The notes below the pieces were generated by a model, which had not been told where the DNA came from, made no database searches, and saw only the letters and a list, made by a program, of their open reading frames with translations. Below, one piece after another: positions 1 to 12,401 of a DNA stretch of 64,000 nt (positions are counted from its first letter, which is position 1; each line of letters opens with the position of its first letter). The DNA is taken from the NCBI GenBank assembly GCA_046703825.1, contig JBJKSO010000105.1, positions 320 to 64,319 on the forward strand, read 5' to 3'. The position numbers and the translations under genes were made by a program. Source of the DNA: Candidatus Dormibacteria bacterium. Lineage in GTDB: Bacteria > Chloroflexota > Dormibacteria > Aeolococcales > Bog-877.

Positions 1-71
1 CCGGCCTCACGAAGCTGATGAATGAGCGGGATTCCTATTGCTCCGGAGCCTCCGATGACCATGACTCGCAC
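1..71 (-). CDS. NAD(P)-binding epimerase/dehydratase-like protein, N-terminal fragment running off the window
   Basis: Minus-strand reading from GTG at 71 gives VRVMVIGGSGAIGIPLIHQLREAG, a Rossmann GxGxxG motif. AGGAGG (rc of 80-85) lies 8 nt upstream. The fragment is too short for the ORF track. Confidence 0.5.
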   Translation of the reverse strand, partial: MRVMVIGGSGAIGIPLIHQLREA

Positions 72-117
72 GCGCCTCTCCTCCTAGTCAGGGCCCTGGA
101 ACAGCCTCTCCGCACCC

Positions 118-144
118 CGTCACATCCGAGGTGTCTATGGGGTC
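118..144 (+). promoter_or_regulatory. candidate ECF41-type promoter upstream of the sigma gene
   Basis: cGTCACA (118-124), 16 nt, GGTC (141-144), compared with the described ECF41 motif TGTCACA-N16-CGTC. It lies 37 nt upstream of the GTG at 182. Confidence 0.3.
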
Positions 145-153
145 ACGTATATA

Positions 154-180
154 GACACTTGAACACGAGAGGATGTGACC
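154..180 (-). promoter_or_regulatory. candidate ECF41-type promoter upstream of the divergent epimerase-like gene
   Basis: On the minus strand: GGTCACA (180-174), 16 nt, TGTC (157-154). It lies about 80 nt upstream of the start at 71. Confidence 0.3.
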
Positions 181-181
181 G

Positions 182-1108
182 GTGAACGAGACTTCATGGC
201 TGGCAGAGCAGTTTGAAGAGCAGCGCGAACATCTCCACGCCGTCGCCTATCGCATGCTCGGGTCGCTCGCGGATGCCGACGACGCTGTTCAGGACACCTG
301 GCTGCGGGTCGCCAGATCGAGCCCTGAGCAGATCGAAAATCTGCGTGGTTGGCTGACCAAGATCCTGGCGCGGGTGTGCCTCAACATGCTCCGTGCCCGC
401 AACCTTCGCCGTGAGCAGCCCGTGGACTTCCACGTTCCCGACCCCGTGATCACCCACCAGCCAGAAGAGGAGGCGCTCCTGGCAGACTCGATCGGCTTGG
501 CGCTCCTAGTCGTGCTCGACAGCCTCGCCCCGGCCGAACGCCTGGCGTTCGTGCTCCATGACCTCTTCGGCCTTCCCTTCGGCGAAATTGCCCCGATAGT
601 GGAACGGACCCCGATGGCGACGAGGCAACTGGCAAGCCGGGCACGGCGCAGAGTCCGAGGCGCCGCAGCCAGCAGGCCCGAGGATGACCTCACGCGCCAA
701 CGCTCGCTGGTCGATGCCTTCTTCGCCGCCACCCGCAACGGCGACTTCGATGCCCTCGTCCGGCTGCTCGATCCAGACGTCGTCTTGCGCATCGACGCGG
801 GCGTAAGGCTTCCCAGCGCCTCGATGCTAATCCGTGGCGCCGAGGCGGTCGCGCACCAAGCCGGCCGGGGCCTGCAGACGTTGTTCGTCAGACCGGGTTT
901 GGAGTTGCGGCCTGCGCTGGTCAATGGGACCGCCGGAGCCGTCGTCACCACCGACGTCCGACTCGTGACGGTTATCGGATTCACTACCGCCGACGGCAAG
1001 ATCGTCGAGATCGACGCCATCGCGGATCCGCAGCGCTTGCCCACCATCTCAGCGGCCCTCTTGGCCACCGGCGGTCCCCGCCATCCTCGCGCCAAGGGTG
1101 CGTCGTGA
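182..1108 (+). CDS. ECF sigma factor, ECF41/SigJ-like, with a fused C-terminal (SnoaL-like) extension
   Basis: ORF track, 308 aa. Region 2 reads DADDAVQDTWLRV and region 4 reads ERLAFVLHDLFGLPFGEIAPIVERTPMATRQLASRARRRV. About 120 extra C-terminal residues follow. No anti-sigma gene is adjacent. GAGAGGA lies 8 nt before the GTG. Confidence 0.85.
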   Translation: MNETSWLAEQFEEQREHLHAVAYRMLGSLADADDAVQDTWLRVARSSPEQIENLRGWLTKILARVCLNMLRARNLRREQPVDFHVPDPVITHQPEEEALLADSIGLALLVVLDSLAPAERLAFVLHDLFGLPFGEIAPIVERTPMATRQLASRARRRVRGAAASRPEDDLTRQRSLVDAFFAATRNGDFDALVRLLDPDVVLRIDAGVRLPSASMLIRGAEAVAHQAGRGLQTLFVRPGLELRPALVNGTAGAVVTTDVRLVTVIGFTTADGKIVEIDAIADPQRLPTISAALLATGGPRHPRAKGAS

Positions 1109-1650
1109 GTCAGCCACTTGTGGCCGGCCCAGCCATTTAGGCGCCGCCAGTATAAGGCTGGCTGAGAATGCGGAGGTCATCGGTTCGAAGTTTCCGCAGA
1201 GCGTGTGCACGCGGCTCGCGTTGAAGGCTCTCGGTTTGACACGGCCACTGAGTTCGCTCTAGCCGTCAGCGTAGATACACAGAGCCTCGTGCGGATGTTG
1301 GATAGGCGGTTGTCGCGGCGGGAACGCCGCGGGTACAGCGAGATAGTCGGATCATCGTCTTCCGCAATTGGCAGACCTGTGGACCTGACCGCGGCCCAGC
1401 CGGCGATCCCCCCGTATCGTGTTCGTGTGCGAGTGCTGCGTCATGGAATTGGGGCCGACACACAACCGGTGCGACCGCTTCGGGGGGACGGCGACGTTGG
1501 ATCGCTGCACTGATTATCAGTCCGAACCCGAGCCTGTGGCTCCAAGGCGGACTGGGCAGGCTCACGCCGATAGTGCCCTACCGCCTACCACCTATTGGAC
1601 GGATCTCAGGGAAGAGCTAGATCGTGGTAGCCTCGCAGCCGGCCACTCAC

Positions 1651-2208
1651 CTACTCGCCGAAAATTCGAAGCTGCGTAGCCAACGTCCCGTAGTATCCGA
1701 CAATCGAGGTAAGCTCCCACGCGTCCACAGCTTGCAGCTCCGCAGTCTCTGACACACCATATTCGCGGTCACCCGTAGCTTGGCTCAGCAGGTCGACAAC
1801 GAAGGCTAAGCTTGCTCGCTCCCTGGCGTCCCGACATTCCGGTGCCGCTCCAGATCTCAGCTGCCTGATCTCATCATCTAGAACACCACTTCGCCGCGCC
1901 AAGGCCTCATGGGTAGCCCTCTCGAATCCACAATCCCAATGAGCCGCAACAAGAAGAATGGCCATCTCCCGGATCCGCGCTGGCAACTGCCCGGAGTAGC
2001 GGATGGCGCAACCAAGCGCTTGCAGGGCATCGCCAATCGCAGGAGAAAGAAGCATGGAGTTAAAGGGTCCTCGCAGCGACCCGTCAGTCTCAACCAGCGG
2101 GCTGGCCCGCTCATCTTTAATGCGAGGTCCGCCCACTATCGTTTTGTAGAGCGCCATCTGGTCCACGCTCATCTCGTGAGGCTTCAGGCGCGGTACCCGC
2201 ATACTCAT
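1651..2208 (-). CDS. carboxymuconolactone decarboxylase (AhpD-like/CMD) family protein
   Basis: ORF track, 185 aa. The protein is helical and CMD-like (AILLVAAHWDCGFERATH). Its start overlaps the upstream stop by 4 nt. Confidence 0.7.
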   Translation of the reverse strand: MSMRVPRLKPHEMSVDQMALYKTIVGGPRIKDERASPLVETDGSLRGPFNSMLLSPAIGDALQALGCAIRYSGQLPARIREMAILLVAAHWDCGFERATHEALARRSGVLDDEIRQLRSGAAPECRDARERASLAFVVDLLSQATGDREYGVSETAELQAVDAWELTSIVGYYGTLATQLRIFGE

Positions 2209-2960
2209 CTAGCTCTAAGCTCACGCAACGCCGTCAACTCCGCAACACTTGGTGGCTCACTCCTAGCGACTCTGTCCGAAACCCTCAGTTGCCATCCGGT
2301 GGCGGCCCGTGCGCCCTCTACTGTCTGGCCAGGGTGCAGGCTTACCAAGGTCAGCTCGACGCTAACAGGGTCTGGAGCCAAAATGCCTATATCTGTGACG
2401 ACTCGCCGCGGGCCACGGCCAATCATACCGAGCCGCGCGCGATCGTCACGATCGGAGCCGAATCCGACCGAGGTCCGAAAGTCCAAGCGCTCTACGAATA
2501 CTCTCGGACTCTGGCGCATTACGATGACTATCTCCTTGCACGAGGCCGCAATCTCCGGCGCACCACCAGCGCCTGGAAGGCGCACCACCGGCTTGCGGTA
2601 ATTACCGCCCACCATCGTCGTATTCAGGTTTCCAAATCGATCTATCTGCGCCCCGGTCAGCAATCCGATGTCGATCCTGCCCGGCTGCAGCCAGTAATTG
2701 AATATTTCGGGTACCGAAACCACTACATCCGCAGTCTCAGCCAAACCTCCATCTCCTATCGATAGAGGCAATGTCGACGGCTTGGACCCTATGGTTCCAG
2801 CCTCGTAGACTAGAGTCATCGACGGGGCGTGCGTGACCCGTGCCAGATTTGAGGCCGCGCTCGGCACGCCAATGCCAACGAAGCAGACGGTATGATCGTG
2901 CAACTCGCGGGCCGCAGCTATTGTCATCATCTCTTCAGAGGAATAGTCAGTGCTGGCCAT
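2205..2960 (-). CDS. family I CoA-transferase subunit B (glutaconate/3-oxoacid type)
   Basis: ORF track, 251 aa. MMTIAAARELHD..VCFVGIGVPS and GAQIDRFGNLN are typical of beta subunits. Confidence 0.85.
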   Translation of the reverse strand: MASTDYSSEEMMTIAAARELHDHTVCFVGIGVPSAASNLARVTHAPSMTLVYEAGTIGSKPSTLPLSIGDGGLAETADVVVSVPEIFNYWLQPGRIDIGLLTGAQIDRFGNLNTTMVGGNYRKPVVRLPGAGGAPEIAASCKEIVIVMRQSPRVFVERLDFRTSVGFGSDRDDRARLGMIGRGPRRVVTDIGILAPDPVSVELTLVSLHPGQTVEGARAATGWQLRVSDRVARSEPPSVAELTALRELRAR

Positions 2961-2969
2961 CAGGCTGAC

Positions 2970-3776
2970 TCACTCATGCAGGACGTGGGTCCGCATCCAG
3001 GACATAAACGCATCGCGGTCGCGGCTTATGGCATCCCACTGCTGATAAAAGTTGTTGTCGCGTTCGGAGTAGCCCGCCGCATATGAGGGATGGCACCCAT
3101 TTTTCGACTCAGATACACAACTTATGACGAACCCTGGGAGTATTATGTCGCCGGGTCGCCGATCTAGCACGTCTACCACCTCTTCCACCGTGACCAAGGA
3201 TCGCTTCGCGGCGAGTACTGCTTCCTTCTGGACTCCAATGATCCCCCACATCTGTACATTGCCGTGCCTATCGGCTCGCTGGGCGTGAATGATCGCCACG
3301 TCGGGATTCATCGCCGGTACAGCGGTCAGAATCTCACCGGTGAATGGACACGTGATCGTACTTATAGTTTTCGTTTCGCGCGGCAAATCCGTGCCAACGT
3401 ATCCGCGGAGTAGCGCCAATGGCAAGCCCGACGCTCCCGCGACGTAGCGATTTGCCATCCCGGCGTGGCTGTGTTCCTCAATTGCTAGAGGAAACGGCCA
3501 CCGACACTCAACCGCGTCGCGAAAGCGATGCAGAGAGCCGACTCCAGGATTGCCAGCCCAGGAAAACACCAAACGCTCAGCGCACCCCATTCCAATCATC
3601 TGATCGTAGATGATGTCGGGAGTCATCCGCACCAACGTAAGTCGCCGGCGTTCTTGACGAATGATCTCGTGGCCCGCTTCGAATGGTATTAAATGAGTAA
3701 ATCCCTCCAAGGCCACCGTGTCTCCATCGTGGACGAGTTCAGCTACGGCCTGAGCGAGGCTGACTATCTTGGCCAC
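2970..3776 (-). CDS. family I CoA-transferase subunit A
   Basis: ORF track, 268 aa. The N-terminus SLAQAVAELVHDGDTVALEGF is typical of alpha subunits. GTG start with a GAAGG-type SD. Confidence 0.85.
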   Translation of the reverse strand: MAKIVSLAQAVAELVHDGDTVALEGFTHLIPFEAGHEIIRQERRRLTLVRMTPDIIYDQMIGMGCAERLVFSWAGNPGVGSLHRFRDAVECRWPFPLAIEEHSHAGMANRYVAGASGLPLALLRGYVGTDLPRETKTISTITCPFTGEILTAVPAMNPDVAIIHAQRADRHGNVQMWGIIGVQKEAVLAAKRSLVTVEEVVDVLDRRPGDIILPGFVISCVSESKNGCHPSYAAGYSERDNNFYQQWDAISRDRDAFMSWMRTHVLHE

Positions 3777-3918
3777 CAGCTCTACCTTCCCGCGATCGCA
3801 GGACCACCCAGCACAACTTTAATGGTGCGTTGCGCGCCTTTGACCGAAGCGCATCCGCGAGTCGACACGCTGTCGCCACTCGCAGTCCAGGCGCGCACTT
3901 CGGGATGACGTGCCGCTC

Positions 3919-5223
3919 TCACGCAACCTCCTCAAGAGCCATCGCAAACGCCTGTAACAGCTGATCGACATGTGCATCCGTCATTACGGTGGATACGCAT
4001 CCCAAGCCGTCTTGCCCTATTAAGATGCCCGCTTCCAGCAGGCTTCGAGAAATTCGTCCAACGGCTTTGCGATCCTGGGCCTTCATCGAGCGATAATCGT
4101 AGACCGTGCCGTCGCCGATGTGAAACCGAAACAGTGACCCCTCGCCGGTAACACTGCCGCATCGACCCGACCGAGCCAGTGCCTCCGTCATGCCCACCCT
4201 GACCGCTGCTCCGAGCCGGCCGAGTCGGTCAAACTCCTCACTCCCTAGTCCGGCAAGTGTAGCCTCGCCTGCGACCATCGACACCGGATTAGCGTTGAAC
4301 GTCCCACCGTGATGTAAGGCGATACCAGCCGGCGTCTCGTCAAAGACAGTCATCACCTCCGCGGATCCCCCAACGGCCCCGATCGGGTAGCCGCCGCCTA
4401 TCAGTTTCCCAAGGGTGGTTAGATCAGGCGACACCCCGTGCAGGTCCTGGGCTCCGCCAGCGGAGAGCCGAAAAGTGATAATCTCATCCGCGATCAGCAA
4501 TGCGCCAGTCGACGTGGCACACTCTCTCAGAGTAGCTAGGAATTCAGGCGTCGCTTGAGGGAATCCCAACCGGTTAGGAAGCACGTCTACAACGATCGCG
4601 GCCAGTTGATCGCTCCTACTTAAGAGAAGCTCTCGCGTCGCAACAGAGTCGTTGAAAGGGATAACCACCACGTCTGCCAGAATCCCGCTGGGCGTCCCGG
4701 CGTTGTACGCTACTCGCTCCGGTGCATTTGGGTCACCCCAGTTGCTAGATGAGCTGTCAACGCTCACCTCTACCCAATCGTAGCTGCCATGGTACGCGCC
4801 CTCACACTTTGCGATGAGCGTTCTGCCGGTGAAGGCTCGAGCTGCCTTAACTGCTTGCATCACAGCCTCACTGCCAGAATTAGTAAAGCGGATGCTCTCG
4901 ATGCTCTTTACTCTGCCCACAATCAGTTCAGCCAAATCGATCTCGGCCTCAGTCGGAAGCCCGAAGCAACTTCCTCGCGAAGCTTGCCGCTGCACGGCGG
5001 CCACGACCGGCTCGTAGGCATGCCCATGAATAAGAGCTGTGTAGTTGTTCAGAAAGTCCAGGAACTGGTTTCCGTCCACGTCTGCTATATATGGACCTTC
5101 GCCTGCTACAGCGTATATCGGAAACGGCTTTGCGTACAGCGTCGTGCGACTGTTACCACCGGCGAGGACCTGCTGGCCCCGCTCGTGCACCCGGCGAGAC
5201 CCGTCAAACTGAACTCCTTGCAT
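3919..5223 (-). CDS. class III aminotransferase, glutamate-1-semialdehyde aminomutase (HemL)-like
   Basis: ORF track, 434 aa. Motifs read: LAGGNSR, DVDGNQFLDF, RFTNSGSEAVMQAVKAARAFTGR, ADEIITF. Confidence 0.85.
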   Translation of the reverse strand: MQGVQFDGSRRVHERGQQVLAGGNSRTTLYAKPFPIYAVAGEGPYIADVDGNQFLDFLNNYTALIHGHAYEPVVAAVQRQASRGSCFGLPTEAEIDLAELIVGRVKSIESIRFTNSGSEAVMQAVKAARAFTGRTLIAKCEGAYHGSYDWVEVSVDSSSSNWGDPNAPERVAYNAGTPSGILADVVVIPFNDSVATRELLLSRSDQLAAIVVDVLPNRLGFPQATPEFLATLRECATSTGALLIADEIITFRLSAGGAQDLHGVSPDLTTLGKLIGGGYPIGAVGGSAEVMTVFDETPAGIALHHGGTFNANPVSMVAGEATLAGLGSEEFDRLGRLGAAVRVGMTEALARSGRCGSVTGEGSLFRFHIGDGTVYDYRSMKAQDRKAVGRISRSLLEAGILIGQDGLGCVSTVMTDAHVDQLLQAFAMALEEVA

Positions 5224-6374
5224 CTCCCTCTACACTCGAATCCTACGGCAGGAAGTCCCCGCACTCTCGGGAAGACGTCCGGCCATGAGCCTCCGAAGGT
5301 GCCCCCTCCTCGGATGAAAACACTCGCCAACTCGCCGGGGGGAATCTCGACTACCAAAGGGAACATTCGGGTACCAAGGACGCTTAATATGCCTTGCGCA
5401 GCAAGGTAATCGGTTCTACCCGTCGGGTCATACTCAGGATCTACTTCGCACATGTCTAAACCGACGATTTTTTCAGACTCACCCAAAAGCGCTAGCATTG
5501 CCAGCAGGTCCGGAGCACTTATGCCGTCAAATACCGGCGCGGCCGTCCCCGGAGCGTCAGCACCGGTAACAATGTCGATGTCGACACTGATATATACTCC
5601 GTCCACTCCGCTGGTCGCATAGTCCAGCGCTTCTGCGACAGCCGATTTGACTCCGACTCGGTTCACGTAGTGAGAGGTGTACGCCTTGAAGCCTTGCCTC
5701 TGCATCTCCCGAAACTGGTTAGGCTCGGACGCAGTGTTCAGTCCTAGCCAGGCGACTTTCGCTACTCCATCCATTTCAGCGATGCGGCGCACGCAGGTAC
5801 CCTGATTGTGGGGGCCAGTGTACATCCCGTCATCACGGAAGTCGGTGTGTGAGTCAAGGTGAATGTGGGCAAGCCTAAAGTCTGGTTTGCGCTCCTTGCA
5901 TGCCTCAAGTACGCCGCGGCAGGCCGGATACGCCACGTAGTGGTCGCCGCCAAGAGTCACTGTTAGTGCCGCGCGGCGCGCGACTTCTCGTACGTGAGCA
6001 ACCGCTTCGCGCAATTGCGCGTCCCGGTCCGCGGGAATGACAGGCACATCGCCGGAGTCCACGATCGGTAGCTCTGCCGGCCACCCGGTGACGCGGCCGT
6101 CGAAGATGTTGAGCAGTCCCACGTCTGTCTGGAAGGCGTAGTACCGGACCGCGCGCAGAGAAGCCACTCTGATCGCCCTAGGCCCATGGCGCATCCCCGT
6201 CCGCCCACCAGTTGTGGCATATTCATCGAAGGGCATCCCTACGATGCCTATCGAACCTTGCGGCACTTCGGAAGGCTCTACCCATCGACTTCGTGCGAAT
6301 GACGAAACTCCTGCGTACCAAGGAGCCGCGAGATCGCGCACCCCGAATCTGTTCTGTCCCGGCACTAACACCAT
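5106..6374 (-). CDS. arginase-fold ureohydrolase (agmatinase / guanidino-acid hydrolase type)
   Basis: ORF track, 422 aa. Mn-site motifs read LGGDHYV, HLDSHTD and SVDIDIVTGADAPG. The last ~80 aa are low-complexity and overlap the next gene by 118 nt, so the 3' end is doubtful. Confidence 0.8.
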   Translation of the reverse strand: MVLVPGQNRFGVRDLAAPWYAGVSSFARSRWVEPSEVPQGSIGIVGMPFDEYATTGGRTGMRHGPRAIRVASLRAVRYYAFQTDVGLLNIFDGRVTGWPAELPIVDSGDVPVIPADRDAQLREAVAHVREVARRAALTVTLGGDHYVAYPACRGVLEACKERKPDFRLAHIHLDSHTDFRDDGMYTGPHNQGTCVRRIAEMDGVAKVAWLGLNTASEPNQFREMQRQGFKAYTSHYVNRVGVKSAVAEALDYATSGVDGVYISVDIDIVTGADAPGTAAPVFDGISAPDLLAMLALLGESEKIVGLDMCEVDPEYDPTGRTDYLAAQGILSVLGTRMFPLVVEIPPGELASVFIRGGGTFGGSWPDVFPRVRGLPAVGFECRGRCKEFSLTGLAGCTSGASRSSPVVTVARRCTQSRFRYTL

Positions 6375-6408
6375 CCTCCCTTCAACAGGCCGTTCTGCGT
6401 ATCCCTAA

Positions 6409-7392
6409 CTACCCGTGAATTAACTGCCACGACTTAAGACGCTTACCTCTAGGGTCAAGCATTAGAAGCGCGCCCCGCAAAATGCCGTCGTTGTATTCGC
6501 TGCCCGGATTGATTGCCGTGGTCTGACCCAGCTTTTGAACGGCTGCAGACTCGTGGATGTGACCGTGCAAACTTAGCATAGGCTGGTAGCGGTCAATCAC
6601 TGACCTTACCGCGCTGCTCCCGACACCGCCCACCAGCACCTGGCCGCCACGCATTCTCGGGTTGAACTCCTCATCCAAGAGCGCTGCTTGATCCAGTTGT
6701 GTATCTCGTGGCGGACAGTGCACGTTCAGGATAGCCGTCTCGGGCTCGCTGAGTTTATCCATGAGCCTATCCAACCTAGCTGCGATTTCGTCCTCCGGCA
6801 ACTCGCGCGGTGTCTTCCAAGGGGTGGGGTTGGAAAAGCCAAGTGACGCCATTTGGACGCCCCCCGGCAACTCGACAACCGCCCCATCAGTCAAAACAAC
6901 GGCAGCCTCAGCCAAATCCTCAGCCACTTCTTCATCATCATCGTTGCCAAGCATCATGTAAGTCTGCGTGCGCAGCCCGCCAAGCCGGTCACCGATCAAG
7001 CCGACCCATTCTCGAGTCTGCTTGGATATTACTGGCTTGAACAGGTCACGCTGAACTAGCTCCGGATGGGCATCGTAGGTGGCCTTTTCTTCCGGATCCA
7101 GGACTACCGGGTACTTTCCGGCGGCACGCAGTTGGCTCTCGAAGGAGGCGAGCTCCTCCTCTGACTCAATTCGGCCGTTGGGTTCATAGAGCTCTGACCG
7201 CCACTTGCCGCCGGCCTCCCTGACAATCGGTACTACGAACTTTCCAGTCAAGTCGCCGCCGAAAACGAGTGCGTCCAGTTCAAAGGTCTTCGCGGAGTTA
7301 ACCCACTTCCTAAAGGCCCGCTCCGACCCGTGAATGTCAGCGGCATAGAACACCCGCACATTCTGACTGCTTTCTCGGCGATGCCCGAACAA
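6409..7392 (-). CDS. metallophosphoesterase (calcineurin-like) family protein
   Basis: ORF track, 327 aa. Motifs read ADIHGS, GGDLTGK, LGNDDD and LHGHIHES. Confidence 0.8.
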   Translation of the reverse strand: MFGHRRESSQNVRVFYAADIHGSERAFRKWVNSAKTFELDALVFGGDLTGKFVVPIVREAGGKWRSELYEPNGRIESEEELASFESQLRAAGKYPVVLDPEEKATYDAHPELVQRDLFKPVISKQTREWVGLIGDRLGGLRTQTYMMLGNDDDEEVAEDLAEAAVVLTDGAVVELPGGVQMASLGFSNPTPWKTPRELPEDEIAARLDRLMDKLSEPETAILNVHCPPRDTQLDQAALLDEEFNPRMRGGQVLVGGVGSSAVRSVIDRYQPMLSLHGHIHESAAVQKLGQTTAINPGSEYNDGILRGALLMLDPRGKRLKSWQLIHG

Positions 7393-7396
7393 TTGG

Positions 7397-9022
7397 CTAC
7401 TCCGGGGGAAGTTCGGTGAAGGCTACCGACAAATTCACTCCACGACGCTCATTGACCCATTTGCTTGTCAGGTACATCAGAACGGCAACGACGAGCATAA
7501 TCGGGAAGGAGATAAACACCACCGGAGAATTCGCGCCGAGCGCATTATTGGTTAGATACTGCTCGAAGAAGAAGGCATAGGAAGCAAACGCCAGACCGCC
7601 CACCACTGAAATGGCCGGCAATCCGAAGATCTTCCGCCGAGAGATCGGCGCAAGGTTGTACAGGGCTTGTCGGCGCCAAGGAATCACGATGGCCACGAGG
7701 GAAACAAGTAAGAAGATCGGCAGTTGCCCAAGCAGCGCCCCAAATGCCAACTGTAGGATCGTGCTTGGTCCCCAAACCAACACTGCGCAGATGACGCAGT
7801 ACACGAGAAAGAGTACAAAGTTTGTGATGAGTGGGCTATGAGTTCTTTCGTTTACCTCAGACAGCTTCGCGGGCATAACCCTATCGAAGGACCACGCAAC
7901 CATGCTCCGCGTGGTCAAGAAGAACGCGGGGCCTTGACTCACTATGATCAGCAGCACGAGCAACCCGTTCATAGCGATGATTAGAGGGGTGTTGGACGTG
8001 AGCAGCGACGCAAAGAGCATGATGCCAGGCGGGGCAGGGAACGGGTATGCCTTCGGGTCTGCCGATGCGATGTACGTAGCTGACCCGATCCAGTTCTCTC
8101 CAAGGCTGTGGGCGGCGAACCCGAGCAAGAGCAGCAGCCCGACTACGCCGATCCCTATTGCTGAGAGGTAGGCGCGAGTTACGGTGCTCGAAGGTCGACG
8201 GATTTCTCCTCCCAGGTAGGCGGCCGTGAACCCGAACCCCATGAACCCGAATACGACTGGCGTTGCCGCAAAATCGGCACCGAGGTTGAACCCGGAGCCG
8301 GGATGATAGCCAGCCTGTGCCGCTGCCGAGAGAATCTTACCGTAGCTAGAGTGAAACGACTTCAGCACCGGTGTCAGTGCCGCACTCGTGTGCGTCGCCA
8401 GTACGAGAACGGCAAGGAGCAAACTCAGTGCACCAAAGGGGAGCAGTATCGCATAGACTTTCGTAAACGTGCGTAGCGGGAGGCTCGCGACAATAAGCGC
8501 CGCCAAAATGCACCCTATCCCAATTAGGTAGGTTGGAGCCGGGCTACTTAGTGTGGTAGCGACGTTTAGAAGGCCCGCGTTGTGGGATCGAATGCCTACA
8601 GCAGCAAAGACGGCAGCCAGGTACTGAGGAGCGATAGTCGCGAAGACCGACCCGACACTGAAGATGACGAAAAGGTTAAGCACAACGCTCGCCACAAAGC
8701 CAATGGGTGCCGACAGCGTCCTGCTTACGAATATGTAGTCCCCACCCGTCCGGGGCATCAACTGTGAGAGCCACCCCCATAGTAGAGCAAACGGTACCGC
8801 GAGCACCGCGCCGAGGACTATAGCTGCCGCCCAGTTTGATCCCGGCGCTGCGATTGGGGCGATCGTGACGATGAAAAGAGCGTAGGGCGGAGACATCACT
8901 GCGAGCGACATTAGAATAGCGCCACCCGTGCCTAGCTCTCGCACTAGTCCCGTTGTCTGTCGCGCATACACCCCGACTGCATTCGGAATGCCAGATACCC
9001 CGCCAACCGTGTCAGATGCCAC
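7397..9022 (-). CDS. APC-superfamily amino acid/polyamine permease
   Basis: ORF track, 541 aa. About 12 hydrophobic segments. GTG start. The gene sits between the regulator and the enzymes. Confidence 0.8.
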   Translation of the reverse strand: MASDTVGGVSGIPNAVGVYARQTTGLVRELGTGGAILMSLAVMSPPYALFIVTIAPIAAPGSNWAAAIVLGAVLAVPFALLWGWLSQLMPRTGGDYIFVSRTLSAPIGFVASVVLNLFVIFSVGSVFATIAPQYLAAVFAAVGIRSHNAGLLNVATTLSSPAPTYLIGIGCILAALIVASLPLRTFTKVYAILLPFGALSLLLAVLVLATHTSAALTPVLKSFHSSYGKILSAAAQAGYHPGSGFNLGADFAATPVVFGFMGFGFTAAYLGGEIRRPSSTVTRAYLSAIGIGVVGLLLLLGFAAHSLGENWIGSATYIASADPKAYPFPAPPGIMLFASLLTSNTPLIIAMNGLLVLLIIVSQGPAFFLTTRSMVAWSFDRVMPAKLSEVNERTHSPLITNFVLFLVYCVICAVLVWGPSTILQLAFGALLGQLPIFLLVSLVAIVIPWRRQALYNLAPISRRKIFGLPAISVVGGLAFASYAFFFEQYLTNNALGANSPVVFISFPIMLVVAVLMYLTSKWVNERRGVNLSVAFTELPPE

Positions 9023-9809
9023 GACCCATCCCTCCCGTCCTCGTGGTTATAGGGGATTCCGTAGTGGCCGGACTCATCCCCTCTTCGCGAGTCCGGACCT
9101 CCGGATGGAGCCAATGCTCCATTGCATGACGTATGTGCGTGCGCGCGGCGAGTTCCGCGGCGGAAGAGTCTCCAGACGTGATCTCAGCCAGTATCTGATG
9201 GTGCTCCCGCGCTGAGACACGCAACCGGATCTCCTGGTGTCTCAAGCGAAGATAGGTCGCTTGGGACGAAGCACGGATAATGTGCGCCATCCTGCGCAGC
9301 CAGCTGTGGTCGAGGTCCTCCAGCAGCCCGATATGAAATCGGGTGTTCGCTTGCATGTACGCCTTGCGGTCGTCGGTCTCACTCGCCGCTTCCATCTCGC
9401 CGACGCAGGTCGTTAAGGCTTCACGCGCCGAGGAGCTCAACCCCTGCGTCGAAAGCAGGCGCGCGACCAGCCCATCAATTACCTCGCGTACTTCCAGAAG
9501 CTCGCGTGCTGCGGGCCCTGAGAGATCTACAACTGTGCTGGTGCCGTGGGAGTTCGTTTCTATAAGCCCCTCCCCTTCCAGGGTCCGCAGCGCAGCCCGC
9601 AGGGGGGTTCGGCTGACGCCGAGCAACCTAGCGAGATCGTCTTGCGGGACGGAGGTGCCAGGGGCCAGTCGGCCATCGAAGATCAGTGTTCGAAGCTGGT
9701 CGGCGGCGAGCTCCGGCAGTTGGGATGGCCGGCGGACGGCCCAGCCACCGGCGATCGAGGCGGTCGACTCAGCCTGGTCAGTCCCGTGGTGGGCAATCGG
9801 TCGGCTCAA
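9012..9809 (-). CDS. GntR-family (FadR/FCD-type) transcriptional regulator
   Basis: ORF track, 265 aa. The wHTH reads LPQDDLARLLGVSRTPLRAALRTLEGEGLI and is followed by a helical FCD-like domain. TTG start with GGAGGA 8 nt upstream. Confidence 0.85.
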   Translation of the reverse strand: MSRPIAHHGTDQAESTASIAGGWAVRRPSQLPELAADQLRTLIFDGRLAPGTSVPQDDLARLLGVSRTPLRAALRTLEGEGLIETNSHGTSTVVDLSGPAARELLEVREVIDGLVARLLSTQGLSSSAREALTTCVGEMEAASETDDRKAYMQANTRFHIGLLEDLDHSWLRRMAHIIRASSQATYLRLRHQEIRLRVSAREHHQILAEITSGDSSAAELAARTHIRHAMEHWLHPEVRTREEGMSPATTESPITTRTGGMGRGI

Positions 9810-9832
9810 GCGTTTCGTCCTCCAGAAGCTGC

Positions 9833-9847
9833 GTATACTGGATCCAG
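9833..9847. promoter_or_regulatory. candidate operator: adjacent perfect palindromes GTATAC and CTGGATCCAG
   Basis: GTATAC lies at 9833-9838 and CTGGATCCAG at 9838-9847. Both sit 24-38 nt upstream of the GntR start, inside the divergent intergenic region. Confidence 0.3.
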
Positions 9848-10024
9848 GACACGGTCGGCGTCAAGTGGCTGCGGCTAGTGAAGTCGGAGGCTCCAAACTG
9901 ATGTTCGATCAACGCGTATGCCCTCAGTCATTGGACCCGCGGGATCAGCTGAGAGCGACGCGTGCCTCTCTAGGCGTAGCCTGGCGTCCGCCGTGCTTGC
10001 ACCTGGAGATGATGGCGGTGAGCC

Positions 10025-10780
10025 ATGAGTGAGGATGGAGGACACCGCTGGACTGGTGAGGTCTTGTTGGAGGACGCCAGACGGCTGGTCGAGGCGGCGC
10101 AGCGCAGAGGCGTTCGCGCCCGACTGTTGGGGGGCGTTGCCTTCTTTCACGTTTCCCCAACAGCGAGGGAGGGATCGCTAAGTCGGCGGTATCGCGACTT
10201 CGACCTGGTGGTAGGTCGGCGCGCTGGACGGGATTTGGCGAGACTGTTCCGCGAGTTGGGTTACGGGGAGAATCGGAACTTCAACGCCCTGCACGGTGCC
10301 GATCGACTAATCTTCTTCCACCCAGACAAAGGGTTTTCGATAGACATTCTTGTTGGCGACTTCAAGATGTGTCACAAACTCGCCCTCGACGGGCGCCTAC
10401 CGGCAGAAGGTCTAACGCTAAGCCCGGCCCAGCTGCTGTTAACCAAGCTTCAGATTGTTCAGATTGAGGACAAGGATCTGGGGGATGCGGCCGCGCTGGT
10501 CGCCGACGCAAGTGGGCAGGATCCGCCGATTCTGGACGCCCGGCAGTTCGCAGAACCATTAGGTCGAGATTGGGGTTTTTATCACACGGTCGAAATCAAC
10601 CTTCGTCGTCTCAGCGACTTCGCTGACAGTCGCCTGCCTAGCCATATAGCCTCGACCATACGTCAGCGCGTCTCTGCCTTACGAGCAGCCATGGAAGGGG
10701 AGCCCAAGAGCTTCGGCTGGCAAACACGCGCGCGCGTCGGAGAGAAGCGGCGCTGGTACGACCTGCCAGAGGAAGTCTAA
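10025..10780 (+). CDS. nucleotidyltransferase-fold protein of unknown function
   Basis: ORF track, 251 aa. LLGGVAFFH...YRDFDLVV resembles the minimal NTase G-x-x and DxD signature. Confidence 0.55.
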   Translation: MSEDGGHRWTGEVLLEDARRLVEAAQRRGVRARLLGGVAFFHVSPTAREGSLSRRYRDFDLVVGRRAGRDLARLFRELGYGENRNFNALHGADRLIFFHPDKGFSIDILVGDFKMCHKLALDGRLPAEGLTLSPAQLLLTKLQIVQIEDKDLGDAAALVADASGQDPPILDARQFAEPLGRDWGFYHTVEINLRRLSDFADSRLPSHIASTIRQRVSALRAAMEGEPKSFGWQTRARVGEKRRWYDLPEEV

Positions 10781-10851
10781 AAAGCATGCGATCCGTCCGT
10801 TGAATGGTCTGCGGTCTCTAATCTGCCGAACCTCACATTGAGAAGGGTGCC

Positions 10852-11133
10852 GTGCGACACAAGAGGTGGTTGGCGGTGGAACCGACCGATTCGCTAGCTC
10901 ACCATGGGGAGCTAGTTCGGCAACTCCGTCACTGGGAGGCCTGGAGACGCTGGCTGGGCGCGAGACTCAAAGCCGCGCAGACCGCCGGATACCCTCGTGC
11001 TAGCGCCACGCGTATTTTTGAGGCCGTTGCAGCACGTGGCGTCATGGCGCCCCGGGACGCGGTGGCAGATCTGGCGGTGAGGAGGATGGCGCCGATTGAG
11101 AGTACAAGCTGGCCGCGCGCACCGTTGCCGTAG
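10852..11133 (+). CDS. hypothetical protein (weak)
   Basis: ORF track, 93 aa. GTG start, poor SD, no recognisable motif. Confidence 0.2.
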   Translation: MRHKRWLAVEPTDSLAHHGELVRQLRHWEAWRRWLGARLKAAQTAGYPRASATRIFEAVAARGVMAPRDAVADLAVRRMAPIESTSWPRAPLP

Positions 11134-11228
11134 TGGCACCGTCGCTCACGCACCTGAAAGCGATCGTTCTGCACTGCGACCCGCCCACTCCGATTTCGGC
11201 CGGATCAAGGCTCTCAGGTGAGATGGAA

Positions 11229-11301
11229 AGCGGGAGACGGGTCTCGAACCCGCGACCTTCTGCTTGGGAAGCAGACGCTCTACCAACTGAGCTACTCCCG
11301 C
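11229..11301 (-). tRNA. tRNA-Gly (anticodon CCC)
   Basis: The minus strand reads GCGGGAGTAGCTCAGTTGGTAGAGCGTCTGCTTCCCAAGCAGAAGGTCGCGGGTTCGAGACCCGTCTCCCGCT. It folds by hand into a 73-nt cloverleaf with anticodon loop TTCCCAA. CCA is not encoded. Confidence 0.95.
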
Positions 11302-11382
11302 CAGCCGGACGAGAGCCGGAGTATAGCTCGTGCCTGTGATACCTTCGGGCGGCCATCGGTTCGCGCCAAGGAGGAGCCGACG

Positions 11383-11661
11383 ATGATCACCGCCTTCATG
11401 CTTGTCACCGCCGATCGCTCCCATCTGGCTGAGCTCGGTCCCCGGCTAGCGGCGTGCGAGGGGGTCGCCGAGGTCTACACGACCACCGGTGACGTGGACT
11501 TCATAGTTCGGATCCAGGTCGCTGACCTGGAGGAGCTGTCGGTCTTGGTCCAGGACCGGTTGGGACGAATCGAGGGCATCCTGGCCACCAAGACCCACCT
11601 GGCGATGCGTCGCTTCGCCCCCGCAGAGATCGCAGCCGCCTTCGACCTCGGCATCGACTGA
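11383..11661 (+). CDS. stand-alone Lrp/AsnC ligand-binding (RAM) domain protein
   Basis: ATG at 11383, preceded by AAGGAGG (11368-11374). The 92-aa protein reads MITAFMLVTADRS...VAEVYTTTGDVDFIVRIQV, typical of the AsnC_trans_reg domain. Confidence 0.75.
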   Translation: MITAFMLVTADRSHLAELGPRLAACEGVAEVYTTTGDVDFIVRIQVADLEELSVLVQDRLGRIEGILATKTHLAMRRFAPAEIAAAFDLGID

Positions 11662-11684
11662 GGGATCCCGGGCGGTCACCGGGC

Positions 11685-12380
11685 TCAGATGCCGGCCGAA
11701 CCCAGAAGATGACCCACCCCGGCGGTCACCGCCATCGCAGCGCCCCCGCCGAGCAGCACCCTGAGCCCGCCTCGGCGCCAGTCAGCGCCACCGGCCAGCG
11801 CGCCCAGGACGCCGAGCCCCACCAGCGCGATCAGTGCCACCACCACCAGGGCGATGGCCCGGGCCACACCGGTGGAAAGTAAGCCGGTGACCACCGGAAT
11901 CGCGGCGCCACCGGCGAACGCCGCTGCCGACGACACGGCCGCCTGAAGTGGCCGCGCCCGGCCGTACTCGGTAATGCCCAGCTCGTCGCGAGCGTGGCTT
12001 TCCAGAGGGTTGCGCTCCATCAGTTGCCGCGCGACCTGCGCCGCCAGCTCGCGATCCAGGCCCCGCTCCACGTAGATCTGGGTCAGCTCTTCCCGCTCCC
12101 ACTCCGGGTTGGCGTGCAGCTCCAGCTGCTCGCGCGCCAGCTCTGCCTGCTCGGAGTCCTTCTGGCTCGACACCGAAACGTACTCGCCCGCCGCCATCGA
12201 CATTGCGCCCGCCACCAGCCCGGCCACTCCCGCGACCAGTACCTGGGGTGAGCTGGCGTGGGAGGTGGCGACACCCAGCATCAGGCTCGCGGTGGAGACG
12301 ATCCCGTCGTCGGCGCCCAGCACCGCGGCGCGCAGCCAGCCGGTCCCCGACAGGCGGTGGCTTTCAGCTACCGGCCTCAC
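11685..12380 (-). CDS. VIT1/CCC1-family iron/manganese transporter
   Basis: ORF track, 231 aa. Motifs read AAVLGADDGIVSTASLMLGV and AGEYVSVSSQKDSE. C-terminal TM helices are present. Confidence 0.85.
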   Translation of the reverse strand: MRPVAESHRLSGTGWLRAAVLGADDGIVSTASLMLGVATSHASSPQVLVAGVAGLVAGAMSMAAGEYVSVSSQKDSEQAELAREQLELHANPEWEREELTQIYVERGLDRELAAQVARQLMERNPLESHARDELGITEYGRARPLQAAVSSAAAFAGGAAIPVVTGLLSTGVARAIALVVVALIALVGLGVLGALAGGADWRRGGLRVLLGGGAAMAVTAGVGHLLGSAGI

Positions 12381-12401
12381 CCGCTCCCCAGCACAGCTAC
12401 G

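What the first reader, a model, noticed from the sequence alone, without database searches (positions are those of the whole stretch)
1651..9809. Eight-gene GntR-controlled operon with an uncharacterised enzyme combination (ureohydrolase, HemL-like aminotransferase, CoA-transferase, metallophosphoesterase)
Eight co-directional minus-strand genes are packed tightly. The GntR stop overlaps the permease start by 11 nt. The permease-to-phosphoesterase gap is 4 nt. The CoA-transferase B stop overlaps the CMD start by 4 nt.

Gene order:
1. FadR-type GntR regulator.
2. APC permease.
3. Metallophosphoesterase.
4. Arginase-fold ureohydrolase with intact Mn motifs.
5. HemL-like class III aminotransferase, a subfamily that includes beta-amino-acid transaminases.
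6. Two-subunit family I CoA-transferase (glutaconate/3-oxoacid type).
7. CMD/AhpD-like protein.

I know of no characterised pathway with this set. A chemically coherent reading has four steps: uptake of a guanidino compound, release of urea, transamination of the freed (possibly beta) amine to an oxo acid, and CoA activation of that acid. The phosphoesterase and the CMD protein have no obvious role in this reading. No dehydrogenase or thiolase is encoded here.
Basis: inference. Interest (0 to 1): 0.6.

Follow-up and report, generated by a model that had tools for sequence, protein, structure and literature searches.

The report
Mosaic guanidino-compound catabolic gene islet
A soil bacterium (Candidatus Dormibacterota) carries a foreign-looking nine-gene islet that most likely imports an unidentified guanidino compound, splits off urea, removes the freed amine and feeds the carbon skeleton into central metabolism as a CoA ester; it is assembled from three gene modules that each recur elsewhere, one of them a widespread transporter-phosphoesterase-nucleotidyltransferase trio of unknown function.

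Summary
The eight minus-strand genes, their overlaps and their domain assignments are all confirmed. No protein reaches the NCBIfam cut-off of a characterised enzyme, and I found no described pathway with this gene set.

The operon is a mosaic of three modules.
1. APC permease plus metallophosphoesterase belong with the divergent gene at 10025-10780, a Pol-beta-type nucleotidyltransferase fold. This trio is conserved on its own: 5 of 5 MPE-positive Dormibacterota relatives, and about 25 of 30 MPE loci in Actinomycetota.
2. The ureohydrolase belongs to a rare, almost entirely metagenomic clade. Members pair repeatedly with a HemL-like transaminase and in three loci also with this CMD protein. 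The transaminase is closest to the Sphaerobacter beta/gamma-amino-acid transaminase (PDB 6K8H) and keeps its proposed carboxylate-binding Arg.
3. The CoA-transferase keeps its catalytic Glu. Subunit A is 68% identical to the PcaI-position subunit of a canonical actinobacterial pcaIJFHGBDC operon, so it is a 3-oxoadipate-type CoA-transferase.

A sister ureohydrolase clade sits in clusters that add a PcaF-like thiolase and an aldehyde dehydrogenase. The substrate remains unknown.

All nine genes have low GC3 (0.62-0.71, against 0.79-0.92 in flanking genes), which suggests acquisition as one unit.

Other readers of this scan noted similar clusters on other DNA. Verdict: a new variant of a known kind, of moderate interest.

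The parts
9012..9809 (-). GntR/FCD-type transcriptional regulator, first gene of the operon
   Evidence: Pfam GntR 51.8 bits and FCD 64.8 bits, both above cut-off. The best NCBIfam match is PhnR-like at 104 bits, far below its cut-off of 271. Its stop overlaps the permease start by 11 nt.
7397..9022 (-). Divergent APC-superfamily permease; member of the conserved APC-MPE-NTase trio
   Evidence: Pfam AA_permease_2 51.3 bits. Homologues at 24-39% identity lie next to MPE homologues in 26 of 30 Actinomycetota loci and 5 of 5 Dormibacterota loci.
6409..7392 (-). Metallophosphoesterase of an uncharacterised family (Icc-related; aq_1956/TT1561-like fold)
   Evidence: Pfam Metallophos and Metallophos_2 matches are borderline. 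More than 4,700 homologues were found, none with a functional name. D19, H21, D47, N150, H225, H276, H278 and H280 are among the invariant columns; I take them to be the metal/catalytic residues. The AF2 model has pLDDT 91.4. Best Foldseek hits are 2YVT and 1UF3, both of unknown function.
5106..6374 (-). Arginase-fold ureohydrolase. The catalytic domain is residues 1 to about 354. Codons 355-422 (5312-5106) are a read-through tail that homologues lack.
   Evidence: Pfam Arginase 199.8 bits. It falls below the NCBIfam cut-offs for agmatinase, HutG and arginase. It is roughly equidistant (86-100 bits) from solved agmatinase, the entries 9FEK/7ESR deposited as 'agmatinase 2', GpuA, PAH and GbuA. 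Metal ligands are invariant and homologues end at ...VF[IVL]V. In the tree it sits in a clade of 16 rows, all but one of them metagenomic contigs, with support 100/99.
3919..5223 (-). Class III (HemL-like) aminotransferase of the beta/gamma-amino-acid omega-transaminase type
   Evidence: Pfam Aminotran_3 186 bits. HemL equivalog score 328.7 bits against a cut-off of 527. Best PDB match is 6K8H at 431.8 bits, followed by ForI. The PLP lysine and the equivalents of StoTA R36, T38, Y47, N70 and T317 are conserved.
2970..3776 (-). Family I CoA-transferase subunit A, actinobacterial PcaI (GctA-like) type
   Evidence: Pfam CoA_trans. Best PDB match is GctA, 1POI. It is 63-74% identical to Actinomycetota orthologues. 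It is 68% identical over its full length to the PcaI-position gene of a pcaIJFHGBDC operon.
2205..2960 (-). Family I CoA-transferase subunit B, PcaJ (GctB-like) type, catalytic Glu present
   Evidence: Best PDB match is GctB at 113 bits. The Glu of GctB's VESG aligns with YEAG here, whereas the weaker 5MZW-5N03 hits ('glutaconate CoA-transferase family') have N or S at that position. It is 52-67% identical to Actinomycetota orthologues, and 13 of 30 of those are followed by a thiolase.
1651..2208 (-). CMD (AhpD-like fold) protein without a CxxC motif; travels with the UH-AT pair
   Evidence: Pfam CMD 40.6 bits. No NCBIfam hit and no PDB sequence hit. It is not similar to PcaC. Homologues at 28-35% identity occur in the UH-AT clusters L091 and L107.
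10025..10780 (+). Divergently transcribed Pol-beta-type nucleotidyltransferase-fold gene; third member of the APC-MPE-NTase trio
   Evidence: Weak Pfam NTP_transf_5 match, 21.4 bits. More than 900 homologues, all named 'hypothetical'. Invariant GG...DxD...D. AF2 pLDDT 91.3. Weak fold matches (TM about 0.4) to MenT1, LnuA and ANT(2''). It lies next to MPE in 25 of 30 Actinomycetota loci and near MPE (within about 4 kb) in 5 of 5 Dormibacterota loci. Its GC3 of 0.65 matches the operon.
9810..10024 (.). 215-bp divergent control region between the GntR operon and the NTase gene
   Evidence: Read from the sequence. The consensus scan found no promoter or terminator above chance.

Best explanation
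The stretch from about 1651 to 10780 is a nine-gene catabolic islet, probably acquired horizontally, in a Candidatus Dormibacterota genome. It is controlled by its own GntR/FCD regulator.

Inferred flow:
1. A small nitrogenous solute carrying a guanidino group and a carboxylate enters through the APC permease.
2. The arginase-fold ureohydrolase cleaves the guanidino group, giving urea and a free, non-alpha amine.
3. The beta/gamma-amino-acid-type class III transaminase converts that amine to an oxo group. This also captures the nitrogen.
4. The PcaIJ-type CoA-transferase activates the resulting 3-oxo-dicarboxylate-like acid (3-oxoadipate or a close analogue) to its CoA thioester.
5. One of the two thiolases encoded elsewhere in the genome cleaves the thioester.

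What is shown:
- The folds, the intact catalytic residues and the orthology-level similarity of the CoA-transferase.
- The islet is built from three modules that recur separately: APC-MPE-NTase, UH-AT-CMD and CoA-transferase A/B.

What is inferred:
- The order of the steps.
- The guanidino nature of the substrate and its identity.
- The roles of the phosphoesterase, the nucleotidyltransferase and the CMD protein. The first two most likely process a phosphorylated or nucleotidylated form of the imported solute, or regulate the permease.
For: **Catalytic competence.**
- UH metal ligands are invariant.
- The AT keeps the PLP lysine and the proposed carboxylate-binding Arg of the Sphaerobacter beta/gamma transaminase.
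- CoA-transferase subunit B keeps the catalytic Glu.

**CoA-transferase type.**
- Subunits are 63-74% and 52-67% identical to Actinomycetota pairs. Thirteen of 30 of those are followed by a thiolase.
- One such operon scores as pcaI-J-F-H-G-B-D-C. PcaC, PcaD, PcaB, PcaG and PcaH pass their equivalog cut-offs.
- Window subunit A is 68% identical to that PcaI-position protein.

**UH-AT pairing.**
- The pair recurs in 10 of the 40 loci holding a UH relative of at least 38% identity: L091, L107, L110, L112, L113, L115, L117, L119, L124 and L158. Many of the other loci are short contigs.
- Type C clusters read AT, CoAT_A, DAO, CoAT_B, PcaF-like thiolase (545 bits), ALDH, M24, UH. They join the same chemistry using a different CoA-transferase lineage.
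- CMD homologues occur in L091 and L107.

**Trio conservation.**

**Islet composition.** The nine genes have GC3 of 0.62-0.71, against 0.79-0.92 in flanking genes.

**Own genome.** It has no PcaH and no second copy of CoA-transferase B, so the transferase is not part of an aromatic pathway there. Two generic thiolases are present.
Against: - No substrate is identified, and no known natural beta-guanidino dicarboxylate would fit the simplest three-step route.
- The exact eight-gene set was found nowhere else.
- The closest UH relatives (L091, L107 at 53% identity) pair with a Zn-alcohol dehydrogenase, RpiR, SDRs, a Rieske oxygenase and an MR/MLE enzyme instead of a CoA-transferase. The downstream chemistry is therefore not conserved.
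- A 142-nt gap separates the AT from the CoA-transferase genes.
- No urease alpha subunit was found in the genome, which is 91% complete.
- By sequence the UH is as close to the entries 9FEK/7ESR deposited as 'agmatinase 2' as to the guanidino-acid hydrolases.
- The UH carries an unexplained 68-residue tail.
Confidence: 0.5

Rival explanations
1. This is juxtaposition, not one pathway. Three functionally independent modules sit side by side after transfer and merely share orientation: a solute-uptake trio, a UH-AT-CMD amine module and a PcaIJ-type 3-oxoadipate transferase. The CoA-transferase serves some other 3-oxoacid.
For: Each module occurs without the others. The trio occurs without UH. 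PcaIJ orthologues lie in pca operons. UH-AT-CMD occurs without a CoA-transferase. A 142-nt spacer lies between the AT and CoA-transferase A genes.
Against: The genes are co-directional and tightly packed, with translational-coupling overlaps. All nine share the same atypical GC3. The host has no pca genes that the transferase could serve. An independent lineage, type C, also combines UH, AT, a CoA-transferase and a PcaF-like thiolase.
Confidence: 0.25
2. This is an agmatine/polyamine-type route. The UH is an agmatinase-like enzyme acting on agmatine or a related guanidino-amine. The AT is a diamine transaminase. The CoA-transferase acts later on a dicarboxylate.
For: The best solved sequence relative is an agmatinase at 99.5 bits. 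Sister-clade clusters use a weakly PotD-like polyamine-type binding protein and an aldehyde dehydrogenase.
Against: The UH scores 119.9 bits against the agmatinase equivalog cut-off of 174.3. The AT retains the Arg proposed to bind the substrate carboxylate in beta/gamma-amino-acid transaminases. The window has no aldehyde dehydrogenase, which a diamine route needs.
Confidence: 0.08
3. This is creatine/creatinine-like metabolism. The UH clade is an arginase-fold functional analogue of creatinase or guanidinoacetase. It acts on the ring-opened product of a creatinine-like compound.
For: Clade relatives sit next to creatininase-like genes (171.7 bits against a cut-off of 235), NCS1 permeases, ThiO/sarcosine-oxidase-like DAO enzymes and DoeA-like M24 hydrolases.
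Against: None of these partner genes is in the window. Sarcosine or glycine products would not need a HemL-like transaminase or a CoA-transferase.
Confidence: 0.07
4. This is a biosynthetic or tailoring role, for example de-amidination of a guanidino natural product, as in marginolactone pathways.
For: Amidinohydrolases of this fold do act in biosynthesis (abstracts of PMC4737276 and PMC5704753, listed).
Against: The islet and its neighbours contain no PKS, NRPS or other scaffold-building genes. A permease and a local repressor-type regulator are typical of catabolism.
Confidence: 0.03

Closest known systems
Guanidino-acid catabolism via GbuA/GpuA (guanidinobutyrase, guanidinopropionase) followed by an omega-transaminase, as in Pseudomonas
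   Same: An arginase-fold hydrolase releases urea from a guanidino acid, and a class III transaminase then removes the freed non-alpha amine.
   Different: The UH is only distantly related to GbuA and GpuA (86-88 bits) and forms its own clade. The transaminase is HemL-like of the beta/gamma type, not GabT-like. A CoA-transferase follows instead of a semialdehyde dehydrogenase.
Beta-ketoadipate pathway, final steps: PcaIJ 3-oxoadipate:succinyl-CoA transferase plus PcaF thiolase (actinobacterial GctAB-like type)
   Same: The CoA-transferase subunits are 52-74% identical to those in canonical pca operons, and the catalytic Glu is present.
   Different: The genome has no pcaHGBDC genes. The adjacent CMD protein is not PcaC. 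No thiolase lies in the islet.
Arginase (Roc) pathway: RocF arginase, RocD ornithine aminotransferase, RocA P5C dehydrogenase
   Same: The logic is the same: ureohydrolase, then class III transaminase, then oxidation. Sister-clade clusters even carry a P5CDH-like ALDH.
   Different: The UH scores 77.9 bits against the arginase cut-off of 227.6. The AT is not ornithine-aminotransferase-like. The window has no ALDH.
Sphaerobacter thermophilus omega-transaminase StoTA (PDB 6K8H)
   Same: It is the closest solved relative of the AT (431.8 bits). Both share the PLP lysine and R36, T38, Y47, N70 and T317. StoTA acts on beta and gamma amino acids (PMC10589169).
   Different: The natural role of StoTA is unknown. 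Sixteen homologues at 44-50% identity (14 Chloroflexota, 2 Rokubacteria) have none of the other operon genes nearby.
aq_1956 / TT1561 metallophosphoesterases (PDB 2YVT, 1UF3)
   Same: They are the best structural matches to the MPE model.
   Different: Both are structural-genomics proteins without a known substrate. The window protein has a roughly 60-residue helical insertion, and TM-scores are only 0.5-0.7.

Membership tests
Arginase/ureohydrolase superfamily (PF00491) | The Pfam model passes its gathering score, and the binuclear-metal ligands are present (GGDH His, DxHxD, DxD). | tested here: met
   199.8 bits against a cut-off of 22. H145, D174, H176, D178, D265 and D267 are invariant in 25 homologues.
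Agmatinase SpeB, formimidoylglutamase HutG, arginase RocF (NCBIfam equivalogs) | The score reaches the curated equivalog cut-off. | tested here: not met
   Agmatinase 119.9 against 174.3. HutG 131.7 against 229.15. Arginase 77.9 against 227.6.
Glutamate-1-semialdehyde 2,1-aminomutase HemL | The score reaches the TIGR00713 cut-off. | tested here: not met
   328.7 bits against 527.3. The protein is closer to 6K8H (431.8 bits) than to any solved GSA-AM (252.8 bits or less).
Beta/gamma-amino-acid omega-transaminases (StoTA/VpAT/MesAT group) | The PLP lysine is present, together with an N-terminal Arg proposed to bind the substrate carboxylate. | tested here: met
   The GGNSR Arg aligns with StoTA R36. 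The equivalents of K282 and T317 are conserved. Activity was not tested.
Family I CoA-transferases (catalytically active, GctAB/PcaIJ type) | Subunit B has the active-site glutamate that forms the enzyme-CoA thioester. | tested here: met
   Window YEAG aligns with GctB VESG. The weaker 5MZW-5N03 hits ('glutaconate CoA-transferase family') lack this Glu.
PcaIJ 3-oxoadipate:succinyl-CoA transferase (actinobacterial type) | High identity to subunits encoded in a pca operon, and a pca genomic context. | tested here: inconclusive
   Subunit A is 68% identical to the PcaI-position protein of L270. However, G000 has no PcaH, and the islet has no PcaF, PcaC or PcaD.
4-carboxymuconolactone decarboxylase PcaC / AhpD peroxidase | A PcaC equivalog score, or a CxxC active site for AhpD. 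| tested here: not met
   No NCBIfam hit. No BLAST similarity to a bona fide PcaC. The protein has a single Cys that is not conserved in homologues. Only the generic Pfam CMD domain passes, at 40.6 bits.
Calcineurin-like metallophosphoesterases | The fold and the metal-binding motifs (DxH, GD, GNH/D, H, GHxH). | tested here: met
   Pfam matches are borderline. D19, H21, D47, N150, H225 and H276-H280 are among the invariant columns; I take them to be the motif residues. Foldseek probability is 1.0 to many MPE structures.
Pol-beta-superfamily nucleotidyltransferases | The hG[GS] motif and the DxD...D catalytic carboxylates on the NTase fold. | tested here: met
   G36, G37, D58, D60 and D107 are invariant. 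Fold matches to MenT1, LnuA and ANT(2'') are weak, TM about 0.4. The Pfam PF14907 match is below its cut-off.

The most novel reading that the evidence does not exclude
Two linked novelties are not excluded.

(a) The UH-AT-CoA-transferase genes may encode an undescribed route from a beta-guanidino or beta-amino-omega-guanidino carboxylic acid to a 3-oxoadipyl-CoA-like thioester. Candidate substrates are amidinated beta-lysine or beta-glutamate type compounds. This would define the substrate of a new ureohydrolase clade.

(b) The APC-metallophosphoesterase-nucleotidyltransferase trio may be a new kind of uptake module. It is present in about 13% of sampled Actinomycetota genomes and in scattered Dormibacterota. 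Its two enzymes might process a phosphorylated or nucleotidylated form of small nitrogenous solutes. Alternatively they might reversibly nucleotidylate a component that controls the permease.
Probability: 0.2. Interest if true: 0.7.

Novelty: new variant of a known kind. Interest (0 to 1): 0.45.

Why it matters
- The fate of guanidino compounds in soil is poorly mapped beyond arginine, agmatine, guanidinobutyrate, creatine and free guanidine.
- This islet and its metagenomic relatives define a distinct ureohydrolase clade that repeatedly recruits a beta/gamma-type transaminase and 3-oxoadipate-type CoA chemistry. That points to an unrecognised substrate class and gives concrete enzymes to assay.
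- The analysis also exposes a compact three-gene module of transporter, phosphoesterase and nucleotidyltransferase. It is widespread in Actinomycetota and has no annotation, which makes it a tractable target for function discovery.
- For the poorly known phylum Dormibacterota, the islet is an example of metabolic gain by horizontal transfer.

Tried and rejected
**Readings rejected**
- IpdAB-like or other non-transferase reading of the CoA-transferase pair. Rejected because the catalytic Glu is present and the best matches are GctAB/PcaIJ.
- HemL, agmatinase, HutG, arginase and PcaC identities. All fall below their curated cut-offs, or give no hit at all.

**Searches that found nothing**
- Riboswitch or other RNA element. 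Rfam found only tRNA-Gly in 1-13000.
- Integration scars. No credible direct repeat of the tRNA end, and no integrase.
- Promoter and terminator scan: at chance level.
- Literature searches for the gene combination, the trio and the hypothetical intermediates. No pathway was found.

**Checks that did not support an earlier idea**
- The hairpin in the 142-nt spacer. The whole spacer folds no better than shuffled sequence, z = 0.38.

**Uninformative results**
- Foldseek on the MPE and NTase models confirmed the folds only.
- The ESM Atlas returned only generic names.
- The genomic context of 16 AT homologues (14 Chloroflexota, 2 Rokubacteria) showed none of the other operon genes nearby.

**Not done**
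The contigs of the closest UH homologues, for example P0002 at 69% identity, could not be inspected.

Full report
**Observation**

The eight minus-strand ORFs are present at the stated coordinates. I read the junctions directly from the sequence.
- The GntR stop and the permease GTG start share 11 nt.
- Four nt separate the permease and the phosphoesterase.
- Thirty-four nt separate the phosphoesterase and the ureohydrolase.
- Nine nt separate the two CoA-transferase subunits.
- The subunit B stop and the CMD start overlap as ATGA.
- Most starts have a GGAG-type ribosome-binding site.

The only long gap is 142 nt, between the aminotransferase and CoA-transferase A. As a whole this spacer folds no better than shuffled sequence (z = 0.38). 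The consensus scan found no promoter or terminator above chance.

Pfam confirms every domain call. NCBIfam places none of the eight proteins above the cut-off of any named enzyme.

**Host and setting**

The window is contig C105 of a 2.18-Mb genome that is 91% complete. An earlier follow-up in this scan assigned the genome to Candidatus Dormibacterota. A locus that looks like a contig of a same-family genome carries a Candidatus Dormibacteria title (L029).

The operon genes have 57-59% GC and a GC3 of 0.62-0.66. GntR has 64% GC and a GC3 of 0.71. The divergent gene at 10025-10780 has a GC3 of 0.65. Flanking genes have GC3 values of 0.79-0.92, and the window as a whole has 66.8% GC.

The low-GC stretch ends at tRNA-Gly(CCC), 11228-11302. 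I found no integrase and no convincing repeat of the tRNA end. The nine genes therefore look like one foreign unit.

The ureohydrolase has no relative above 35% identity in 40 genomes of the same family and order.

**Module 1: permease, phosphoesterase, nucleotidyltransferase**

*Phosphoesterase.*
- It belongs to a very large unnamed family: more than 4,700 hits, annotated only as 'Icc-related'.
- Its invariant residues include the His, Asp and Asn positions that I take to be the metal motifs.
- A confident model (pLDDT 91) matches only uncharacterised structures, 2YVT and 1UF3.

*Divergent gene at 10025-10780.*
- It encodes a protein whose relatives are all annotated 'hypothetical'.
- It has an invariant GG...DxD...D signature.
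- Its confident model (pLDDT 91) weakly matches small Pol-beta-type nucleotidyltransferases: MenT1, LnuA and ANT(2'').

*Conservation of the trio.*
- Five of 41 Dormibacterota genomes have the phosphoesterase. In all four relatives (five loci), a permease homologue and a nucleotidyltransferase homologue lie beside it.
- In 301 sampled Actinomycetota genomes, 38 have the phosphoesterase.
- Among the 30 best Actinomycetota loci (plus or minus 1.5 kb), 26 carry the permease and 25 carry the nucleotidyltransferase.
- Gene order varies, and the remaining neighbours vary too. They include dimethylglycine-dehydrogenase-like enzymes, sulfatases, OpuAC binding proteins, aldehyde dehydrogenases, LacI or DeoR regulators, class III transaminases and BtpA.
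- One metagenomic contig, L116, reads M24 hydrolase, ureohydrolase, permease, phosphoesterase, nucleotidyltransferase.

What the trio does remains unknown.

**Module 2: ureohydrolase, transaminase, CMD**

*Ureohydrolase.*
- All six metal ligands are present.
- By sequence it is about equally distant (86-100 bits) from solved agmatinase, the entries 9FEK and 7ESR (deposited as 'agmatinase 2'; from memory, 7ESR is the Synechocystis Ni-dependent guanidine hydrolase), guanidinopropionase, proclavaminate amidinohydrolase and guanidinobutyrase.
- Homologues at 40-72% identity come almost entirely from metagenomes. One comes from an Actinomycetota MAG.
- A maximum-likelihood tree gives a well-supported subfamily (100/98) with two sister clades.

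*Clade containing the window protein.*
- Some neighbours are NCS1 permease, XRE-cupin regulator, ThiO-like FAD oxidase and a second ureohydrolase.
- Others are creatininase-like genes.
- In the closest loci, L091 and L107, the order is ureohydrolase, Zn-alcohol dehydrogenase, HemL-like transaminase (50-54% identical to the window's), RpiR, CMD (28-35% identical), SDRs, a Rieske oxygenase and an MR/MLE enzyme.

*Sister clade.* It shows two recurrent layouts.
- Layout one: P5CDH-like ALDH, DoeA-like M24 hydrolase, ureohydrolase, an ABC transporter whose binding protein is weakly PotD-like, transaminase.
- Layout two: transaminase, CoA-transferase A, FAD oxidase, CoA-transferase B, PcaF-like thiolase (545 bits), ALDH, M24, ureohydrolase.

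*Transaminase.*
- It is not HemL: 328.7 bits against a cut-off of 527.
- Its best solved relative is the Sphaerobacter thermophilus enzyme 6K8H, at 431.8 bits. That enzyme deaminates beta and gamma amino acids (PMC10589169).
- The window protein keeps the Arg proposed to bind the substrate carboxylate. It also keeps T38, Y47, N70, the PLP lysine and T317.

*CMD protein.* It lacks a CxxC motif, is not related to PcaC at the BLAST level, and has no named relative.

**Module 3: CoA-transferase**

- The pair matches glutaconate CoA-transferase best among solved structures.
- Subunit B retains the catalytic Glu. The weaker 5MZW-5N03 hits ('glutaconate CoA-transferase family') have N or S at that position.
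- Thirty of 301 Actinomycetota genomes hold pairs that are 63-74% (A) and 52-67% (B) identical. Thirteen of those are followed directly by a thiolase.
- In one complete-looking example, L270, the downstream genes score as PcaF-like, PcaH, PcaG, PcaB, PcaD and PcaC. The last five exceed their equivalog cut-offs.
- Window subunit A is 68% identical over its full length to the PcaI-position protein of that operon.

The window's transferase is therefore of the actinobacterial 3-oxoadipate:succinyl-CoA transferase type.

The host genome has no protocatechuate dioxygenase and no second copy of this transferase. It has two generic thiolases on other contigs. No urease alpha subunit was found.

**Interpretation**

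The proposed sequence is:
1. A carboxylate-bearing guanidino compound is imported.
2. Urea is released.
3. A beta/gamma-type transaminase converts the freed amine to an oxo group.
4. A 3-oxoadipate-like acid is activated to its CoA ester for thiolysis.

A second ureohydrolase lineage independently combines the same transaminase type with a different CoA-transferase lineage and a PcaF-like thiolase. I consider this the strongest contextual support.

Four points weaken the model.
- The substrate is unknown.
- The exact gene set is unique to this window.
- The closest relatives use different downstream enzymes.
- The three modules could in principle act independently.

I put the single-pathway guanidino reading at about 0.5 and mere juxtaposition at about 0.25. 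Agmatine-type, creatine-type and biosynthetic readings share the remainder.

**Novelty**

I found no described pathway with this gene set. The logic of ureohydrolase followed by transaminase is familiar. I therefore rate this a new variant of a known kind.

The conserved trio of permease, phosphoesterase and nucleotidyltransferase is the most open element.

**Data caveats**

- The tallies include unpublished genomes: G007, G011, G022, G032, G061, G131, G163, G217 and G311.
- Loci L002, L008, L216 and L255 come from these genomes.
- Dropping L216 changes the trio counts to 25 of 29 and 24 of 29. Dropping L255 changes the thiolase count to 13 of 29. No conclusion depends on these loci.
- My gene calls in fetched loci are a GC3-based heuristic, not a trained gene finder.

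Noticed in passing
window 5106-5312 (minus strand): The ureohydrolase ORF continues 68 codons beyond the point where all 24 aligned homologues end (...VF[IVL]V, then stop). The window has CGA (Arg355) at that position, one base away from TGA. The tail overlaps the aminotransferase gene by 118 nt. It could be a lost stop codon, a real extension or a consensus error in the MAG.
   Followed up: partly
window about 1109-11302: A low-GC3 islet (0.62-0.71, against 0.79-0.92 in flanking genes) ends at tRNA-Gly(CCC), 11228-11302. It has no integrase and no credible att-like repeat.
   Followed up: yes
window 11218-11661 (+): This ORF overlaps the tRNA-Gly gene at its 5' end. It matches only the ligand-binding half of Lrp/AsnC regulators (residues 62-131). 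The true start is probably downstream, giving a stand-alone RAM-domain protein.
   Followed up: no
L011, L101, L103, L105 (metagenome and Actinomycetota MAG loci): A recurrent layout: a second, distantly related ureohydrolase and an NCS1 permease lie on one strand. An XRE-cupin regulator, a ThiO-like FAD oxidase and the clade ureohydrolase lie on the other. It resembles a creatinine/creatine-type cluster in which arginase-fold enzymes replace the M24 creatinase.
   Followed up: partly
L217, L219, L221, L226-L233 (Actinomycetota genomes): The APC-MPE-NTase trio often lies next to dimethylglycine/sarcosine-dehydrogenase-like genes (DAO-FAO_M-GCV_T, often in two copies), a sulfatase, OpuAC-type binding proteins and an aldehyde dehydrogenase. 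This hints at a link to choline, betaine or other methylated-amine catabolism.
   Followed up: partly
L186 (G002:C23, same family as the window's genome), 3838-6115: An agmatinase-like gene (31% identical to the window UH) lies directly beside a HemL-like transaminase (40% identical to the window AT). The UH-AT pairing therefore also exists in a native Dormibacterota context.
   Followed up: no
L183, L184, L185 (Dormibacterota relatives): In these loci a BtpA-family (SgcQ-like TIM barrel) gene sits immediately upstream of the phosphoesterase, with a DeoR regulator nearby.
   Followed up: no
window 182-1108 (+): An ECF-type sigma factor with a fused C-terminal SnoaL-like domain lies just outside the islet.
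   Followed up: no
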